From assembly GCA_024679065.1 (NCBI GenBank), contig JAGIQG010000002.1, positions 98,146,001-98,210,000 on the forward strand: a stretch of DNA of 64,000 nt. The letters are read 5' to 3'. The DNA comes from Sphyrna mokarran. Its lineage: Eukaryota. Shown here in pieces: positions 36,716-44,995 of this stretch. The notes beneath the pieces are model-generated. The model saw nothing but the letters and a program-made list of their open reading frames with translations. It made no database searches and was not told the DNA's origin. Position 1 is the first letter of the stretch, and every line of letters begins with the position of its first letter. Both the position numbers and the translations under genes were made by a program.

Positions 36716-38708
36716 CCAAAAACTCCAAGTTTGAGTTCTAAACGTAAGAATGTCACCCAAAAAATTGAAATTAACTTGGCGCCATGTCAGTTTTGTTATT
36801 CACTAATTCCCAATTATATGAACCATGGAAGAATGGGTATCACTACGAAGATGCTACATTAACAAGTTATTAAAAATCCTGCACTGAAGACTATTTCAAA
36901 CCATAGTAAGACCCTAATTTTCACTCCCAAATATTATGCTAACGTGGGGACATCTGCTGACTGGATGCAATAAGGCCCAGTGTTGAAGACATCCTTTAAA
37001 GTAATGATACACTCCATTTCCGATGCAGTATAATCAAGGATAACTCTGCCTGTGTAATTAACATAATTTACAGTGACTAGTCTATAATTCTGCAGTTGCA
37101 ATATTACCTTGAACAGCTTGCTTTGTGGTAATTGTTACATTTTCTCCAGAGACCCACGAATGAAACACATTGTCCATCGACACACAGATTAATTAGAGGC
37201 AGTAACCTTGTAGAGTGTTACACAGCACTCCTTAAACATCCTGCCAATCTGCAGTGTCAAATGAAAGGAAGAGGATTTAAAAAGGAGACGCTGCCCAGTG
37301 ATTGAAGGCAAGCAAATTAGTCAAGATTTCCTCTTGCTTTACCGTGATGGTTTGCATCTAACGAGCAGGCACTCCGATTAACTTGAAATGCCGCTAACAA
37401 GTAATTTTAACAAGTGTCAGTTACATTCAATCTGTCAGTGTTGCTGACAGGCAAAATTTAATTAGGGATGAAACATATCGCTCTGTGCACATACCCATGT
37501 GGGCCATCTTCTGCATTCTTTAGTTTAAAATTATACCACAGCCAGTAAGATTGTTTTCAGCCCATCCCTTGCTTCTCAAATAACTTTGTTTTCTCTCTAC
37601 TTTTTAACACAGCAGTTCCATTCCATTGTGTTAAATTACTGAAGTTATGAGCATGATTTTAATAGATATACAAATTATATTTTTTATGCTGGGATTTGAG
37701 GTTGGATTTTACACAATACAGCGGGTGCTATTGCTTACAATCCCAGTTTATCCACTGCATTTTCTGTGCCATTGGGACCGGAAAGCTACCAGCCAATCAG
37801 AAGAGTTGTTGACAGTTTGATGTAGGGCTTACTTCCAACTGAGGGGTAGAGTGCCACCTTAAGCCATTGGAGCATGAAATGGCTGCAAAGTAAGCAGCAT
37901 TAGTTGGGATGTGTCAGCCAACAAATCTTTGGATGGCAGGAAGGAAGCTACACCATTCAAAAATCCTGGCCCATGTCTTTTTGATCTAACTTATTAACTT
38001 TGTGGAACATTTGATAAGAAACAGAGAGGAATTGGGAGAGTAGTGGGCCTTTGAACTTGTAGCTGTGACAGACTTTCTGTCCACAGCTTAACCTCTCTGC
38101 TGCCTAACATCCTGGCCTAGGCTACAGACTGCACATGGAGTCCAACCACCCCCAATCTTGCGCCACACATTGTCCACTATCCTGTCAGGTGGCCATTCCA
38201 ATAGCTATCTGACACTTGATTTGAAATGATAGAGGCAGGCAGGAGGGAACTTCTGCTCTTATAACTAATTTAAGTCAGAATTTCTCTCTCATGGCAAAAC
38301 ACAACAGTTTGACTGTGTAAAAACAATGGCTTAAAAATGCTACAAATTCCAAATATTTGAATTGCTCCAAAAATTGGAACATACATTGTTCCCTTGGAGC
38401 AGCACGGAGAGGCAGCGATTTGGGAGAGCGTAAAGTTTGAGTGTTAAGTAATTTTTAACTTTTTCTCTTTGGTTAAAGTAGCAAGCGGTGGTAGCTTTTT
38501 GCGGTTTTTATTTAAACTAACAAAACCAGAAGTCGTCATTAGGGGGCTTGCCGGTAGTTGTAGTTTTTCTCTCTGACTCTATAAATTGGTCCAGAGAGGA
38601 AACCCGATACTCTACACAGGTAGAGTATCCCACCCTCCCCCTCCTCTAACCTAATAATAAAAGTGTGTGGGAAGTTTTTTTTCTCTCCTGGAAATTAAAG
38701 TATCAGGG

Positions 38709-39632
38709 ATGGCAGTGCAGGCAGTACGTTGCGCCTCCTGTAGTATGTATGAGGTGAGGGACACCAGTAGTGTTCCTGCTGATTATACCTGCAGGAAGTG
38801 TGCCCATCTGCAGCTCCTTAAGGATCGTGTTAAGAAGCTGGAGCTGGAATTAGAGGAACTCAGGATAATTCAAGAGGTTGAGGAGGATATTGGCAGGAGT
38901 AACAAAGAGATAGTCACTCCTAAAAGTGATTCTTGGGTAACTATTAGGAAGAGGGGTAAGAAGCAATCGGGGAGACAATCCCCTGGGGCTGTTCCCCTCC
39001 AAAACAAATTTTCTGTCCTGGAGGCTACAGTTGAGGAAGAATCAACTGGAGATGGCCAAAGGCAGCAAGTCTCTGGGGGTGAGCCAGCTGACAATGCTCA
39101 GCTGGGTAGGGGGAATAAGCAATTGGGCCTGGTAATTGGAGATTCCATAGTTAAGGGGACAGATAGGAAAGTAAATAGTAATAAAAGAGACTCAGGGCTG
39201 GTGTGTTGCCTCCCAGGGGCTGAGGTCCAGGATGTCGCAGAGAGGGTTTTTAAGATTCTTAAGGGAGAGGGGAGTCAGCCCCAAGTCATAGTTCATGTAG
39301 GGACACATGATATAGGTAGGACAAGGGAAGGGGATATTAAACAGAAATTTATGGAGTTGGGGTGGAAGCTTAGGGCCAAAACTGGCAGAGTGGTTATCTC
39401 TGGACTCTTGCCTGTGCCACGGGATAGTTTAGAGAAGAACAGAGAGAGGGAATGTTTGAACTCGTGGCTGCAGGGATGGTGCAGGAGGGAGGGGTTCAGG
39501 TTCCTGAACAATTGGGACTCATTCTGGGATAGGTGGGACCTCTACAAGAGAGATGGTCTACACCTGAACCAGAGGGGAACTAACATCTTGGGGGGAAAAT
39601 TTGCAAAGGCTATGCAGGGGGCTTTAAACTGA
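38709..39632 (+). CDS. CR1 ORF1 protein (307 aa): zinc finger, coiled coil, SGNH/GDSL-type esterase domain
   Basis: ATG at 38709; CX2CX16CX2C (CASC...CRKC); heptad-like LLKDRVKKLELELEEL; esterase blocks VIGDS, PGA, HVGTHD, DGLH; uninterrupted. Confidence 0.92.
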   Translation: MAVQAVRCASCSMYEVRDTSSVPADYTCRKCAHLQLLKDRVKKLELELEELRIIQEVEEDIGRSNKEIVTPKSDSWVTIRKRGKKQSGRQSPGAVPLQNKFSVLEATVEEESTGDGQRQQVSGGEPADNAQLGRGNKQLGLVIGDSIVKGTDRKVNSNKRDSGLVCCLPGAEVQDVAERVFKILKGEGSQPQVIVHVGTHDIGRTREGDIKQKFMELGWKLRAKTGRVVISGLLPVPRDSLEKNRERECLNSWLQGWCRREGFRFLNNWDSFWDRWDLYKRDGLHLNQRGTNILGGKFAKAMQGALN

Positions 39633-42512
39633 TTCAGAGGGGGGGTGGGATCCTGAGTAGTTGGGGTGCTAAGAGGGATGAGAATAGGGGGGTCATAGAG
39701 GAGAACTGCAAAACACAGCAGCGTACGGGTGGAGTAGGGCATGGTTTGAAATGCGTATACTTTAATGCAAGAAGTATTCGCAATAAGGTGGAGGAACTTG
39801 CAGCTTGGACCAGTACCTGGAACTTCGATGTTGTGGCCATTTCAGAGACTTGGGTAGAGCAGGGACAAGAATGGATGTTGCAGGTTCCGGGGTTCAAATG
39901 CTTTAGTCGGAGTAGAGAAGGAGGTAGAAGGGGGGGAGGAGTGGCATTATTAGTCAAAGACTGTATCACAGTGACAGAAAAGAAGTTTGATGAGGACTTG
40001 TCTGTTGAGGTAGTATGGGCTGAGATTAGAAACAGGAGAGGAGAGGTCACCCTGTTGGGAGCCTTTTATAGACCTCCTAAAAGTTGTAGAGAGGTAGAGG
40101 AAAGGATTGCAAAGTCGATCCTGGACAGGAGTGAAAGTAATAGGGTAATTGTTATGGGGGACTTTAACTTTACTAATATTGATTGGAATAGCTATAGCTC
40201 TAGCTCGTTAGAGGGGTCAGTTTTTGTACAAAGTGTGCAGGAAGGTTTTTTGACTCAGTATGTAGATAGGCCAACTAGAGGTGAGGCTACATTGGATTTG
40301 GTGCTGGGCAATGAGCCAGACCAGGTGTTAGGCTTGGAAGTTGGTGAACATTTTGGTGATAGTGACCACAATTCGGTTACGTTCACCTTAGTGATGGATA
40401 GGGATAGGCATGAAGCTGGGGGCAGTAGTTATAGCTGGGGGAAGGGTAATTATGAGGCCATAAGGAGAGAATTAGGGTGCATAGGTTGGACTAGGAAACT
40501 ACAGGGACTGGGAACATCTGAAATGTGGAGCTTATTCAAGGAGCAGCTGCTGCAAGTCCTTGATAAGTATGTCCCTGTCAGGCAAGGAGGAAATGGTCGA
40601 GTAAGGGAACCTTGGTGTACGAAAAAAGTTAATTCGCTGGTTAAAAGGAAAAAGGAGGCTTATGTCAGGATGAGGCTTGAAGGCTCAGTTAGTGCAATGG
40701 ATAGCTATAGATTAGCCAGGAGGGAGCTAAAGAGTGAGTTGAGGAGAGCTAAGAGGGGACACGAGAAGACTTTGGCTGATAGGATTAAGGAGAATCCTAA
40801 AGCTTTCTTTAGATATGTTAAGAATAGAAGATTGGTTAGGGCAAGATTAGGGCCAGTCATAGACAGCAGTGGGAAGTTGTGCGTGGAGCCTGAAGAGATT
40901 GGAGAGGCACTGAATAAATATTTCTCTTCGGTATTCACGCAGGGAGATGTAAATGTAGTTGTGGAGAACACTGAGGTACAGGGTTGCAAACTGGAAAGTA
41001 TTGAAGTACATAGGGAGGATGTGCTAGATATTCTTGAGGGTTTGAAGTTAGATAAGTCCCCTGGGCCGGACGGGATTTACCCTAGGATTCTCTGGGAGGC
41101 AAGAGAGGCGATTGCAGAGCCTCTGGCTCTGATCTTCAGGTCGTCGTTGGTTACGGGTATAGTTCCGGAAAACTGGAGGATAGCGAATGTGGTCCCATTG
41201 TTCAAGAAGGGGAAGAGAGACCTTCCAGGGAATTATAGGCCAGTGAGTCTTACTTCTGTTGTGGGTAAAGTATTGGAGAGAATTATTAGGGATAGGATTT
41301 ATAGTTATTTAGAGAGAAATGAATTGATTGGGGATAGTCAGCATGGTTTTGTGAAGGGTAGGTCGTGCCTTACTAACCTCATTGAGTTTTTTGAAAAAGT
41401 GACCAAAGAGGTGGATGGGGGTAAGGCAGTTGATGTGGTATATATGGACTTTAGTAAGGCGTTCGATAAGGTGGCCCATGGAAGCTTCTGCAGAAAATGC
41501 AGATGTATGGGATAGAGGGTGATTTAGCTAATTGGATTAGGAATTGGCTAGCAGATAGAAGACAGAGGGTGGTGGTTGATGGGAGATATTCATCGTGGAG
41601 TTCGGTGACAAGTGGTGTACCTCAGGGGTCTGTTTTGGGGCCCCTGCTGTTTGTAATTTTTATAAATGATCTGGATGAGGGTATTGAAGGATGGATTAGT
41701 AAATTTGCAGATGACACTAAAGTCGGTGGAGTGGTAGATAGTGAAGAGGGGTGTTATAGTTTGCAGAGGGACTTAGACAAGTTGCAGAGCTGGGCCGAGA
41801 GGTGGCAAATGGAGTTTAATGTGGAAAAGTGTGAGGTTATGCACTATGGCAGAATAATAAATGTGTAGAATATAGGGCTAATGGTAGGATTCTTAGTAGT
41901 CTTGATGAACAGAGGGATCTTGGTGTGTATGTGCATAGATCCCTGAAAGTAGGCAGTCAAGTCGAGAAGGTTGTTAAGAAGGCATATGGAGTCTTAGCTT
42001 TTATTGGTAGGGGGATTGAATTTCGGAGCCGCAACGTCATGTTGCAACTGTACAAAACTCTAGTGCGGCCGCACTTGGAGTATTGTGTGCAGTTCTGGTC
42101 CCCACATTATAAGAAAGATGTGGAGGCATTGGAGAGGGTACAGAGGAGGTTTACCAGGATGTTGCCTGGTATGGAGGGCAGGTCGTATGAGGAGAGGCTG
42201 AGGGATTTGAGGTTGTTTTCGTTAGAAAGAAGGCGGCTAAGAGGAGACCTTATTGAAACATATAAGATGATTAGAGGTTTAGATAGGGTGGACAGTGATA
42301 GCCTTTTTCCTAGGATGGAGAAAGCTAGCACGAGGGGACACAGCTTTAAATTAAGGGGTGATAGTTATAGGACGGATATCAGAGGTAGGTTCTTTACCCA
42401 GAGGGTGGTTAGGGAGTGGAATGCCCTGCCTGCGGCAGTTGTAGATGCGCCAAGTTTGGTGGCGTTTAAGAGGTTAGTTGATAAGTTTATGGAAGAGAAG
42501 GGAATGGTTTAG
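39629..42512 (+). CDS. CR1 ORF2 (APE endonuclease + reverse transcriptase) with two 1-bp frameshifts (~41484, ~41852)
   Basis: FNARS, ISETW, GDFN, LDLV, SDH endonuclease motifs; [30 protein letters not shown] motifs; ORFs 39746..41515, 41497..41868 and 41925..42512 join; start codon unresolved. Confidence 0.9.
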
Positions 42513-43605
42513 TTTGGAGGGTCATTGCTTTTTTCATAATTGGTCGGCGCAACATCGAAGGCCGAAGGGCCTGTTCTGCGCTGTAATGTTCTATGTTCTA
42601 TACCCAATTACATCAATTAAAGACTGAGAAGTTGAAATGTTTTACTTTTGCTGATATAAAAAGGCATTTGAAGGGGGTGATCAAGAATGATATAATGCCA
42701 AGAAAATAGGGGAAGCCAGCCTAAATTTTTACTTTTAAATTTGCTGGTGTGAGTTATTATATCTTTTGCACATAATAGTATTTGGAAGAATCTAATTTAT
42801 GCAATAGTTTAATTATCCACACAAAAATATTGCTTGCCATAGGGAAACAGCATTATTCACACCACAAAAATAGGAAGAATAGACAGGCCAATTAACTTCA
42901 CTGACAAAATATTTCACTTCGATTGAACTGCTGCTCTCCATTAGTGAACATGTAGCATTTGGAAAATATGGGAATAGACTTTATGGCCAATACAGAAGCA
43001 ACATGCTTGCTAAACTTAAAGAATGCTGATCACAAAGATCTCCATGATATCAATTTCTCTATTCTTGGGTACAAAAGGAGATGGTATTATTTTTGATGTT
43101 TTGGGGTTTATTGTGTTATTCCATGAATCATGCTTACGTGTGTGAGCTTTTTGTGTGTGAGAAACTAATGTAATTAAACTGATAACAGTTTAATTGCAGA
43201 TTAAGGACAATAAAGGAGTGTAGGTCTAAATGAACGTTTTTGGAATTAACAGGCCAATTTATATTTTCTATATATAAATAGGCAGTGGGAAGAAATTTGC
43301 ATTCAAAGATGAGGAAAGTATTGTTGTTTTCAGTTGTTAAATTTCAAGAGAGAAATAAAAGAGTTTTACAGCTTGCAAAAATTTCATAAATCAATGAGGT
43401 AAGATTTTTCAATTTTAATTGACCCAAAAAGTGGCCAAAGGAAGAACATGAAATATTTTTATATTCCGAGAAAGTTAAGTTTCAAAGAGGGGCTAAGGAC
43501 CATGAAGGAACAAAAAGAATATTTAAGGAACAATGTTGAGAACTTAGGTGGTTTGGCCATCTGAGGCCTCCTGAGAACCTACAAAAAGAGCTGTGAAGAA
43601 TCAAA

Positions 43606-44995
43606 GTGATGCATTTCCTCTGCAGCTTCTTCAGTGCAATGACATCTTTCCAATAATGTGGTGACCAGAACTGCACAAAGTACTCCAGCTGTGGCCTCGC
43701 CAAAGTTCTATTCAACATCAACATAACCTCTCTGCTTTTGTATCTATGCCTCAATCGATAAAGGCGAATTTATGGTCTTCCATCTATGGCCAAGATCCCT
43801 TTATTCCACAGATCTTCTTAGTGTTACGCCATGCATTGAATACCTTCTTGACAAATTACTCCATCCAAAGTGTATCACCTCACACTTTTCAGGATTAAAT
43901 TTCATCTACCCATTTGATCATTCGTATATATCTTCTTGTTTGCCCAAGTCACTCAGTCTCACTGTAAATCACCGGCCAATCTTTGTGTCATCTGCCAACT
44001 TATTATCCTACCTTCCACATTATCATACAAGTCGTTTATACAAATGATGAATAATAAGGGACCCAGCACAGTTCCCTGTGGTATGCCACTGGACAGTGGC
44101 TTTCAGTCACTAAAGCAGCCTGCTGTCATCATCCTCTGTCTCTACAACTCCGCCAATTTTGAAGCCATTTTATCAAACTATAGTTGATCGCATGTTCATT
44201 TGCTTTCTCTACAAAGCTCCCATGTGGGATTTTGTAAAAGGCTATGCTGAAATCCATACAAACTATCTCAACTACACTACCTTCGTGTCACCTCCTCAAA
44301 AAATTCAATCAAATTTGTATGGCATGGCCTCCCTCTGATGAAGCTAAGCTGATGATCCCTCAACAAGCCTTGTCTTGGAGGTAGATGCTCTCCTTCAGAA
44401 GTTTCTCCAATAGTTTCCCCCTATCGCTGATGTGCGACTCACTGGTCTGTAGTTCCCTGGTTTATCTCTACAACCCTTCTTAAATAGTGGAATCACATTA
44501 GCTGTTCTCAAGTCCTCTAACATCACCTGTGTTTGAGAGTAATTAAACCTGCAATTAGCCTGGGGCACAATTCATCTGGTCCTGGAGATTTGTCCATTTT
44601 TAAGCCTGTCAACACTTTTGTCCTTCCCTCTGTCAATCTGCTCAAGAACCTGTCTCTCTCTCTATGAATTCAATAACTTCATCCTCATTCTCTTGAGTGA
44701 AGGCAGATGTGAAGTATTCATTTAACATTCTACCAATGTCCTCAGAGTCCATCCACAGTTGCTCCCATGGTCTCTAATGGTCCCTACTCTTTTCCTGGTC
44801 ATTTTCTTCTCATTGATATGCTTATAGAACATATTGGGATTTTCTCCACTTTTACTAGCCAGAGCTTTCTCATATCCCCTCTTTGCTTTCCTAGTTGCTT
44901 TCCTCAGCTCCCCTGCACTTTTTATAATTCATTAATGCTTCCACTGAATTGATTCCCTTGTACTTGCTAAAACCTTTCTCCTCCTTCTCATTGTA
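43606..44995 (-). mobile_element. Decayed CR1 ORF2 fragment
   Basis: [30 protein letters not shown] and LADDT on reverse strand. Confidence 0.85.

What the first reader, a model, noticed from the sequence alone, without database searches (positions are those of the whole stretch)
39584..39700. Candidate -1 programmed ribosomal frameshift joining CR1 ORF1 and ORF2 (U UUA AAC + stop + G-quadruplex-capable tract)
Seen: ORF1 ends GCT TTA AAC TGA, so T TTA AAC (39623-39629) is in exact X XXY YYZ phase and is followed directly by the stop. The ORF2 frame is -1 relative to ORF1 and open from 39584, a 49-nt overlap. Its first in-frame ATG is at 39875, after the endonuclease FNARS and SETW motifs; the ATG at 39741 is out of frame and stops after two codons. 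G-runs start 9 nt after the heptamer (G7 39639-45, G3 39647-49, G4 39663-66, G3 39675-77, G6 39687-92). A second in-phase heptamer G GGA AAA lies at 39593-39599. Known: UUUAAAC is the coronavirus -1 slip site; downstream structure, including RNA G-quadruplexes, can stimulate slippage; mammalian L1 uses termination-reinitiation instead. Inference: this LINE makes a gag-pol-like ORF1-ORF2 fusion (...QGALN-LIQRGGG...[10 protein letters not shown]). I cannot check whether this was already proposed for CR1.
Basis: partly seen in the sequence, partly recalled or inferred. Interest (0 to 1): 0.82.

Follow-up and report, generated by a model that had tools for sequence, protein, structure and literature searches.

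The report
Conserved frameshift signal in vertebrate CR1s
This jumping gene (a CR1 LINE) ends its first gene with a virus-style slippery sequence plus a stop codon that its relatives from sharks to birds keep letter for letter, so its second gene, which here has no usable start codon, is likely made when ribosomes slip back one base and fuse the two proteins.

Summary
The element is a young, high-copy CR1 LINE. Seven lineages found without using the heptamer all end ORF1 with T TTA AAC + stop. None of 19 other invariant residues in these lineages keeps one codon, and all three stop codons occur. The linker to the endonuclease varies from 99 to 285 nt but stays in the -1 frame in 10 of 11 length classes. 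The first in-frame AUG lies past the residue matching L1 endonuclease E43. The one amplified variant of the heptamer is G_UUA_AAC, a known arterivirus shift-site type. -1 frameshifting is the best reading (about 0.8) but is untested. A canonical G-quadruplex is not conserved (strict pattern in 1 of 11). What is conserved is a split G-tract 10 nt downstream. The second heptamer is not conserved. Against: in family B, 52 of 100 copies are one G short and out of frame, and some lineages have an upstream AUG or UAAUG. No CR1 proposal was found in ten searches, but three older papers on CR1/LINE ORF2 were not held. A review states -1 frameshifting for the Dictyostelium TRE LINEs. This scan noted the same signal before in two other genomes.

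The parts
38385..42602 (+). Near full-length CR1 LINE copy (5' end approximate), ending in a short GTTCTAT repeat tail instead of poly(A)
   Evidence: Sequence; the 5' end matches the starts of stand-alone element contigs L318-L320; at least 1667 candidate copies of the junction region
38709..39632 (+). ORF1, 307 aa: Cys-pair motif, leucine-rich stretch, SGNH esterase; ends ...AMQGALN*
   Evidence: Pfam PF13472 at aa 143-290; a profile of ORF1 relatives matches the retrotransposon ORF1 structure 4c1b at E 2e-46
39623..39629 (+). Slippery heptamer T TTA AAC, in phase
   Evidence: invariant in 7 of 7 lineages
39630..39632 (+). ORF1 stop TGA directly after the heptamer (TAG or TAA in other lineages); in the -1 frame it is part of CTG ATT
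39640..39649 (+). Conserved split G-tract (GGGGG-DD-GGG) starting 10 nt after the heptamer; candidate stimulator
   Evidence: Same register in A1, A2, B (in-frame form), C, L032, L060, L034 and L062; partial in L031 and L043; 4301 vs 4 matches
39593..39599 (+). Second in-phase heptamer G GGA AAA; family-specific, probably incidental
   Evidence: Present only in A1 and A2 of 11 representatives
39584..41515 (+). ORF2, first segment: -1 frame, 43-aa linker after the slip site, then APE endonuclease (about 39758-40369) and start of RT
39845..39847 (+). Glu of ISETW, aligned to E43 of L1 endonuclease; lies upstream of the first in-frame AUG
   Evidence: alignment to 2v0s/8sp5; the catalytic role of E43 is recalled
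39875..39877 (+). First in-frame ATG of ORF2; not conserved (TTG in relatives)
   Evidence: table 3; family B reads EWLLQ
41470..42512 (+). Rest of ORF2 (RT and C-terminus), split by two private frame changes in this copy (near 41490 and 41850)

Best explanation
Vertebrate CR1 LINEs end ORF1 with U UUA AAC plus a stop and place ORF2 one base back, and a minority of ribosomes likely slip -1 there to make an ORF1-ORF2 fusion protein of about 1270 aa, while most stop and release ORF1p. Shown: the heptamer, its phase, the -1 frame, the missing AUG, the codon-level conservation and the fixed G-tract 10 nt downstream. Inferred: tandem slippage of tRNA-Leu and tRNA-Asn giving ...ALN-LIQR; a pause set up by the G-tract (bound by a protein or folded as a weak G-structure) and perhaps helped by the stop codon entering the A site; a high ORF1p:ORF2p ratio as in gag-pol.
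For: (1) Codon control. In 7 lineages found by ORF1 protein or endonuclease motif, not by the heptamer, the terminal Leu is TTA 7/7 and Asn is AAC 7/7. 0 of 15 invariant endonuclease residues and 0 of 4 other invariant ORF1 residues keep one codon. TTA is 16/83 of Leu codons and AAC 6/33 of Asn codons in an intact ORF2. Third positions between distant lineages agree at only about 15-55%. (2) The T before TTA is kept under Ala, Gly, Ser, His, Val, Thr and Asp codons, and the stop varies among TGA, TAG and TAA. (3) Heptamer-to-endonuclease distance is 99, 111, 126, 135, 141, 153, 156, 210, 264 or 285 nt, always a multiple of 3; family B is 138 in its in-frame form and 137 in its commonest form (the 126, 141 and 156 classes were found with a heptamer-containing pattern). 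33 of 38 motif loci with a located endonuclease are -1, as are 13 of 15 family C copies and 17 of 19 located stand-alone copies. (4) The -1 frame is closed 3-39 nt upstream of the heptamer in 9 of 11 representatives and has no ATG there in any, so ORF2 must be entered at or after the heptamer. (5) Starting at the first AUG would lose the E43-equivalent residue, and that AUG is not conserved. (6) The only amplified heptamer variant is G_UUA_AAC (221 exact matches; 7 of 20 A2 copies); G_UU(A) is listed as the equine arteritis virus type, and U_UUA_AAC as among the most shifty sites on mammalian ribosomes (PMC5009743 passages). (7) Published consensus sequences of bowfin, bullfrog, chimaera, coelacanth, crocodilian, lizard, ray and shark CR1s carry the same junction (PMC13343379 supplement; motif-conditioned search, read by eye). 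(8) ORF1 relatives end in LN in nearly all vertebrate CR1-type hits, and two frameshifted gene models read on as GFKL.
Against: No experiment, ribosome profile or peptide was available. Family B (567 matches): 52 of the first 100 listed copies have the G-run one base short, putting ORF2 in +1; only 27 are in frame (counted by hand from the listing). This is not a general homopolymer artefact: a G7 run in the same family is intact in 30 of 35 copies, and the G10 run of family A2 is at the in-frame length in 55 of 100. Shared ORF2 variants among the short-run copies are still enriched for synonymous changes (12:11 vs singletons 134:389, p=0.008), which would fit ORF2 working in cis. Because the copies are mosaics, junction and ORF2 need not come from one RNA, and an in-frame CAG-G8 form exists here and in another organism's contigs; so mobilisation in trans is an extra assumption, not a result. 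No conserved stable hairpin or pseudoknot was found 5-9 nt downstream (z -0.86 to -2.06). Families E, F1, F2, L034 and L062 have an in-frame Met before the endonuclease, and UAAUG occurs in a few shark lineages. Old family D has the heptamer intact in only 10 of 15 decayed copies, and its frame is unreadable.
Confidence: 0.8

Rival explanations
1. Termination-reinitiation: ribosomes stop at the ORF1 stop and restart in the -1 frame nearby, at AUG where present (UAAUG, as in SART1) or at a non-AUG codon such as the CUG overlapping the stop (as proposed for L1 ORF2). The result would be a free ORF2p, with the conserved letters serving termination or 40S retention.
For: The heptamer always abuts the stop, whereas a slip site need not. 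UAAUG with the AUG in the ORF2 frame occurs in ScyCan_CR1-1a (read by eye), SquAca 17a and 6c (frame not checked), and G000 copies L309 and L316. UAAUG coupling is established for SART1 (PMC2699510 passages), and AUG-independent initiation is considered likely for mammalian LINE ORF2 (PMC5009743). It could tolerate family B if a restart site lay behind the G-run.
Against: The bases after the stop are not conserved (TGATT, TAGAA, TAGGT, TAATA), and the overlapping codon is CUA in most lineages. It gives no reason for an exact X XXY YYZ, for AAC over the fourfold commoner AAT, or for the one tolerated variant being another known shift site. TURBS-like TGGGA motifs are absent within 110 nt upstream in 4 of 11 representatives and at variable places in the rest. 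A restart mechanism would not need the 30-95-codon linker to stay in frame with the heptamer.
Confidence: 0.12
2. -1 frameshifting is right, and the stimulator is a canonical intramolecular G-quadruplex, as the first reader proposed (a sub-hypothesis, not exclusive of the best explanation).
For: The G4Hunter-type score at the junction is in the top 1.2% of the element. ViennaRNA with G4 enabled folds a two-tier quadruplex in 5 of 11 representatives (A2, B, D, L034, L043). Synthetic G4s behind UUUAAAC give up to about 7% -1 slip (PMC3919603).
Against: The strict G3/N1-7 pattern occurs in 1 of 11 (a decayed copy) and the relaxed pattern in 4 of 11. None is predicted for the window's own family A1, for C, L031, L032, L060 or L062. 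The optimal G4 spacer is 6-8 nt and efficiency falls with loop length, whereas here the spacer is 9-10 nt and the loops reach 13 nt. The whole element is G-skewed (+0.46).
Confidence: 0.2
3. The conservation is protein-level or dual-coding only: ORF1p needs a C-terminal Leu-Asn, and ORF2 needs Phe-Lys-Leu from an upstream start.
For: LN ends nearly all CR1 ORF1 hits; FKL is seen in the -1 frame in all lineages.
Against: Other invariant residues never keep one codon (0 of 19). Dual coding would still allow AAT (giving TTR, Leu). The -1 frame is closed 3-6 nt before the heptamer in D, L034, L043 and L062, with no AUG. The G_UUA_AAC variant changes F to V. The related esterase structure 4c1b does not end in LN at the aligned place, nor do the distant hits P0046, P0047 and P0049.
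Confidence: 0.03
4. ORF2 is supplied by splicing or by an internal promoter that provides an AUG.
For: A1 has CTGAT...TTCAG, which loosely resembles a branch point and acceptor; TTTAAA is TATA-like.
Against: The AG is missing in A2 and other lineages. No joint across the junction with GT..AG ends appeared in 4 RNA or RNA-like runs (assembled contigs only, a weak test). An internal transcript would have no AUG before the E43-equivalent residue in A, B, C, L031, L032/L060 or L043.
Confidence: 0.03

Closest known systems
Dictyostelium TRE5-A / TRE3-A LINEs
   Same: APE-RT non-LTR elements for which a review states that ORF2 needs a -1 frameshift (PMC5911963 figure legend; primary papers not seen)
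   Different: Different clade and ORF1; I did not see their shift site or the experimental basis; not vertebrate
Coronavirus / arterivirus ORF1a-1b -1 sites (U_UUA_AAC; equine arteritis G_UU(A))
   Same: Identical heptamer, and the same tolerated G variant (PMC5009743)
   Different: No conserved pseudoknot or hairpin here; the 0-frame stop follows at once; the host is a non-LTR retrotransposon
PRRSV nsp2 protein-stimulated frameshift (nsp1beta + PCBP on a C-rich motif)
   Same: No obvious structure; a short conserved homopolymer-rich motif behind a 10-nt spacer (PMC4937337)
   Different: The motif here is G-rich, the heptamer differs, and no binding protein is identified
Retroviral / LTR gag-pol frameshifting
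   Same: Structural ORF fused to a polymerase ORF at low frequency (the gag-pol model is recalled; Ty1 +1)
   Different: No protease, LTRs or capsid; ORF1 is an SGNH esterase, so any fusion would likely stay uncleaved
SART1 (UAAUG coupling) and mammalian L1 ORF2 (unconventional reinitiation)
   Same: Bicistronic LINE RNA with low ORF2 output
   Different: Both have an ORF2 AUG and give a separate ORF2p; this family has UGAUU and no AUG before the catalytic residue
Drosophila HeT-A gag
   Same: Non-LTR element said to need a frameshift (PMC5009743)
   Different: The shift is inside gag; HeT-A has no RT

Membership tests
CR1 clade LINE | ORF2 with APE endonuclease and RT | tested here: met
   PF03372, PF14529, PF00078
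CR1 clade LINE | Esterase-type ORF1 (canonical vertebrate CR1, PMC13343379 section 15) | tested here: met
   PF13472; 4c1b match
CR1 clade LINE | 3' short tandem-repeat tail, no poly(A), no LTRs (criterion recalled) | tested here: met
   GTTCTAT repeats at about 42587-42602 and in L318-L337
CR1 clade LINE | Placement in the CR1 clade by RT phylogeny | not tested
   No tree built; published CR1-labelled shark and ray consensus sequences share the junction (by eye)
Canonical -1 PRF signal | In-phase X XXY YYZ heptamer | tested here: met
   conserved
Canonical -1 PRF signal | Open -1 frame leading to the downstream protein | tested here: met
   33 of 38, 13 of 15, 17 of 19; exception family B, 27 of 100
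Canonical -1 PRF signal | Stable RNA structure 5-9 nt downstream | tested here: not met
   No conserved hairpin; strict G4 in 1 of 11; pseudoknots were not modelled explicitly
Canonical -1 PRF signal | Transframe product demonstrated | not testable with these tools
   Needs a reporter, ribosome profiling or mass spectrometry
Protein-stimulated PRF (PRRSV type) | Short conserved motif at about 10 nt spacing without structure | tested here: met
   comparison passage
Protein-stimulated PRF (PRRSV type) | Trans-acting protein required | not testable with these tools
   None identified
SART1-type stop-start coupling | UAAUG (overlapping stop and AUG) | tested here: not met
   The window has TGATT; UAAUG occurs only in a few lineages or copies
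L1-type ORF2 reinitiation | Non-overlapping ORFs with a spacer and an ORF2 AUG upstream of the endonuclease | tested here: not met
   49-nt overlap; the first AUG is past the E43 equivalent

The most novel reading that the evidence does not exclude
All esterase-type vertebrate CR1s make their endonuclease-RT only as a gag-pol-like ORF1p-ORF2p fusion, through a -1 frameshift switched by a G-tract-binding protein (a host hnRNP-type factor or ORF1p itself) sitting 10 nt downstream. This would be a G-rich mirror of the PRRSV C-rich switch, kept across jawed vertebrates and with counterparts (G_GAA_AAC, A_AAA_AAC) in invertebrate-type CR1-like elements.
Probability: 0.3. Interest if true: 0.92.

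Novelty: new variant of a known kind. Interest (0 to 1): 0.8.

Why it matters
CR1-group elements are the dominant retrotransposons of most vertebrate genomes (abstract of PMC13343379). How they make ORF2 without a start codon is not addressed in that 2026 survey (0 hits for frameshift, overlap, translat* or start codon). A conserved signal of about 27 nt makes the question testable with one reporter. It predicts a fusion protein unlike anything in L1 biology, explains why annotation pipelines truncate CR1 ORF2 inside the endonuclease, and would guide any attempt to study CR1 in culture. It would add one of the most widespread natural frameshift signals in animal genomes. If the G-tract proves to be a quadruplex or protein switch, it would be a natural case that a 2016 review said was anticipated but unknown (PMC5009743).

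Tried and rejected
Second heptamer G GGA AAA: only in family A; rejected. Conserved hairpin downstream: no significant or shared fold. Long-range pairing of the G-tract with a C-rich site elsewhere in the element: the best duplexes fell at different places in A1, A2 and B; rejected. TURBS-like motif: not conserved. Homopolymer contraction as the cause of family B's off-frame majority: not supported. A shared inactivating lesion in family B ORF2, which would have proved it non-autonomous: none found; L178 has the short G-run and an unbroken 918-aa ORF2. Empty searches: viral contigs, genome contigs, own-genome protein searches with strict cut-offs, earlier findings by sequence. The first 30 own-genome hits are about 99% identical and say nothing about constraint (29 of 30 keep the heptamer, 1 has AAT). 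RNA runs were assembled contigs of other organisms and cannot show expression level or slippage. The PMC4316615 supplement held only 3'-end alignments. PMC13343379 supplement cells are cut at 400 nt, so no fair denominator or frame count could be had from it; a heptamer-free search showed 18 of 35 places and gave 5 CR1 rows with the ORF1 DGLH motif in view, 4 with the full motif and 1 cut after GCTTT.
Full report
OBSERVATION. ORF1 (38709-39632) ends GCT TTA AAC TGA. The -1 frame is open from 39584 and reads FKLIQRGGG...[10 protein letters not shown]. The first in-frame ATG is 39875. ORF1 holds five XXXYYYZ-type words, two of them in phase, and both lie in the overlap. The element has an SGNH-esterase ORF1, APE and RT domains and a short-repeat tail, so it is a CR1-type LINE. 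The ORF1 hits that carry names are mostly from sharks and rays. The genome is 2.77 Gb with at least 1667 candidate copies of the junction. This copy has two private frame changes in RT, like most of the 33 copies checked there (2 had an unbroken ORF2), so the question is about the family.

NO USABLE AUG. The endonuclease Pfam match starts at ORF2 residue 59. Alignment to L1 endonuclease structures puts the Glu of ISETW (39845) on L1 E43, ten codons before the first AUG (the catalytic role of E43 is recalled). That AUG is TTG in relatives. Upstream of the heptamer the -1 frame is open for only 3-39 nt in 9 of 11 representatives (75 and 138 nt in the other two) and has no ATG in any. Ribosomes must therefore enter ORF2 at or after the heptamer.

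CONSERVATION, FOUND WITHOUT THE HEPTAMER. ORF1 relatives from sharks, rays, chimaera, eel and turtle end in LN almost without exception; the most distant fish and insect hits do not. For DNA I used an endonuclease-motif pattern and distant ORF1 proteins. In the own genome, families A (TGA), B (TGA), C (TAG) and the old family D (TAA) all have T TTA AAC + stop as their commonest form: A 17 of 21, with the other 4 G TTA AAC; B 59 of 60; C 13 of 15 and D 10 of 15. Eight had an esterase-type ORF1 end in view. Six have T TTA AAC TAG with ORF2 in -1 (L031, L032, L034, L043, L060, L062), and two are decayed or unresolved (L038, L051). Five of the six resemble bird CR1 proteins (compare the Grus hits). 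The other vertebrate-type loci were truncated inside the linker.

CODON CONTROL. Across 7 lineages, 15 invariant endonuclease residues and 4 other invariant ORF1 residues all vary in codon; only the terminal Leu (TTA 7/7) and Asn (AAC 7/7) do not. In intact ORF2s TTA is about 19% of Leu codons, AAC 18-25% of Asn codons, and T about 27% of fourfold third positions. Third positions between distant lineages are near saturation. One copy with the family's commonest junction was taken per lineage, and A and B are related (81% aa), as are the bird-like loci, so the independent lineages number about five.

FRAME. Heptamer-to-endonuclease distances are 99, 111, 126, 135, 141, 153, 156, 210, 264 and 285 nt, all multiples of three. 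The composite motif has 4301 matches versus 4 for the control. Of 50 such loci examined, 38 had a located endonuclease and 33 were -1, 1 in frame 0 and 4 in +1; 12 had none located. This search was motif-conditioned and revealed further families (E, F1, F2 and others). Published consensus sequences (PMC13343379 supplement; motif search, cells cut at 400 nt, read by eye) show the same junction in bowfin, bullfrog, Callorhinchus, Latimeria, alligator, crocodile, Pogona, rays, sharks and a deep-sea fish. Of 23 hits, 17 were at or consistent with an ORF1 end, 2 were in CR1 5' UTRs, 3 in L2 or Rex1 rows and 1 at the start of a truncated CR1 row. I read one (ScyCan_CR1-1a) through to the endonuclease; it is -1.

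A TELLING VARIANT. The only amplified change of the heptamer is GCG TTA AAC, i.e. G_UUA_AAC (221 exact matches; 7 of 20 A2 copies). A review lists G_UU(A) as the equine arteritis virus type and U_UUA_AAC among the most shifty sites (PMC5009743, passages). About 19 of the 100 listed matches lie on 3-4 kb contigs that consist of the element alone. I fetched 17 of these plus 3 similar contigs; 17 of the 19 located keep the -1 frame. I infer these are among the newest copies.

THE STIMULATOR. No significant or shared hairpin follows the site, and no shared long-range partner was found. A strict G-quadruplex pattern occurs in 1 of 11 representatives and a relaxed one in 4; G4-enabled folding predicts a two-tier quadruplex in 5, not in the window's family (a 12th locus was not located). 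What is kept is a split G-tract in one register, read as x-G-[GDEK]-G with GGG codons, starting 10 nt after the heptamer. Synthetic G4s work best at 6-8 nt with short loops (PMC3919603, abstract and passages). PRRSV's protein-driven signal uses a C-rich motif behind a 10-nt spacer and no structure (PMC4937337, abstract and passages). A protein-bound G-tract is therefore at least as likely as a quadruplex. This is inference only. The second heptamer is confined to family A.

AGAINST. In family B (567 matches) the first 100 listed copies have run lengths 7:15, 8:52, 9:27, 10:5, 11:1, and 9 is the in-frame length (hand count). Family A2 (2113 matches) has its mode at the in-frame length, 55 of 100, with 60 in frame in all, and a G7 run in B is stable. 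So most B copies came from an off-frame source. The short form departs by one base from the register kept in every other lineage, and an in-frame CAG-G8 form is linked to its own SNPs and seen in another organism. B has no shared ORF2 lesion, and shared variants among the short-run copies are enriched for synonymous changes (12:11 vs 134:389, p=0.008; 29 of 38 copies passed the identity filter). Copies are mosaics of haplotype blocks, which uncouples junction from ORF2, so this neither proves nor refutes action in cis. Mobilisation in trans (recalled for LINEs that recognise their 3' tail) or a second slip on the G-run would reconcile it; both are untested. Several lineages have an in-frame Met before the endonuclease or UAAUG at the junction, keeping reinitiation alive at about 0.12. 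RNA contigs showed no GT..AG joint across the junction, a weak test.

WIDER REACH. Invertebrate-type CR1-like loci with a different, Cys-rich ORF1 also have ORF2 in -1 (L033, L035, L037, L044, L053, L056, L058, L059). Five loci carry G_GAA_AAC and three near-identical ones A_AAA_AAC in the overlap; L044 has no clear site, and ORF1 runs on past the site in all. This is a lead, not tested further.

WHAT IS KNOWN. Ten full-text searches found no paper proposing frameshifting for CR1 ORF2. The 2016 frameshifting review has no 'CR1' in the 300,000 of 449,034 characters held. The 2026 CR1 survey has no hit for frameshift, overlap or translation in its main text (section 15 read). PMC4120745 and PMC4255032 passages were silent too. 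The library lacks most subscription papers. The turtle CR1, SART1 and L1 ORF2 papers were not held, and I did not try the 1997 chicken paper; an old passing remark or a Repbase note cannot be excluded. bioRxiv supplements were closed. Precedent among LINEs: TRE5-A and TRE3-A are stated to need a -1 frameshift (PMC5911963 legend), HeT-A gag needs a frameshift, and SART1 uses UAAUG (PMC2699510 passages). Two earlier notes of this scan reached the same reading in other genomes; they are unchecked AI notes and not evidence, and one gave me the TRE lead.

VERDICT. Real, deeply conserved, and most likely a -1 frameshift signal (0.8); the stimulator is unresolved and probably not a canonical quadruplex. 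New variant of a known kind; interest 0.8.

Noticed in passing
L168-L267 (G000 CR1 families B and A2, ORF2): Copies are patchworks of shared haplotype blocks along ORF2, suggesting frequent template switching between RNAs, gene conversion, or a polishing artefact. L010 has a second ORF1 piece spliced in after the junction.
   Followed up: partly
L318-L337 (G000 contigs C98, C115, C119 and others): Many 3-4.4 kb contigs consist of one CR1 copy ending at the repeat tail with almost no flank: possibly heterozygous new insertions split off by the assembler, or extrachromosomal copies. None has an unbroken ORF2.
   Followed up: partly
L168-L202 and window 41470-41870: Nearly every young copy carries 1-3 or more private single-base indels in ORF2 at about 1-2% substitution divergence: an indel-prone RT or assembly error.
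   Followed up: partly
L291, L297-L311, L315-L317: Family F ORF1 has lost the esterase DxxH motif (DGEQL or DGEHL) and family C has DGWH, yet all keep the terminal TTA AAC + stop.
   Followed up: no
L033, L035, L037, L049, L058; L053, L056, L059: Invertebrate-type CR1-like elements with Cys-rich ORF1, ORF2 in -1, and G_GAA_AAC or A_AAA_AAC in the overlap; for L049 no long ORF1 was located.
   Followed up: partly
P0085, P0099, P0122, P0133 and relatives: A very high-copy group of unnamed ORF2 proteins begins FKLV[GS]QGG upstream of the endonuclease, the protein trace expected of the same T TTA AAC + stop junction in another lineage; P0048 ORF1 ends QGN (possible G GGA AAC).
   Followed up: no
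window 43482-44928 (- strand): Fragments of a second, decayed CR1-like ORF2 on the opposite strand right behind the element.
   Followed up: no
window 38700-42500: Strong G-over-C skew on the sense strand (+0.46), making G-runs common throughout the element.
   Followed up: yes
P0010, P0039: ORF1 relatives filed under a bacterium and a flatworm parasite are 60% and 36% identical to this vertebrate ORF1, probably host contamination in those records.
   Followed up: no
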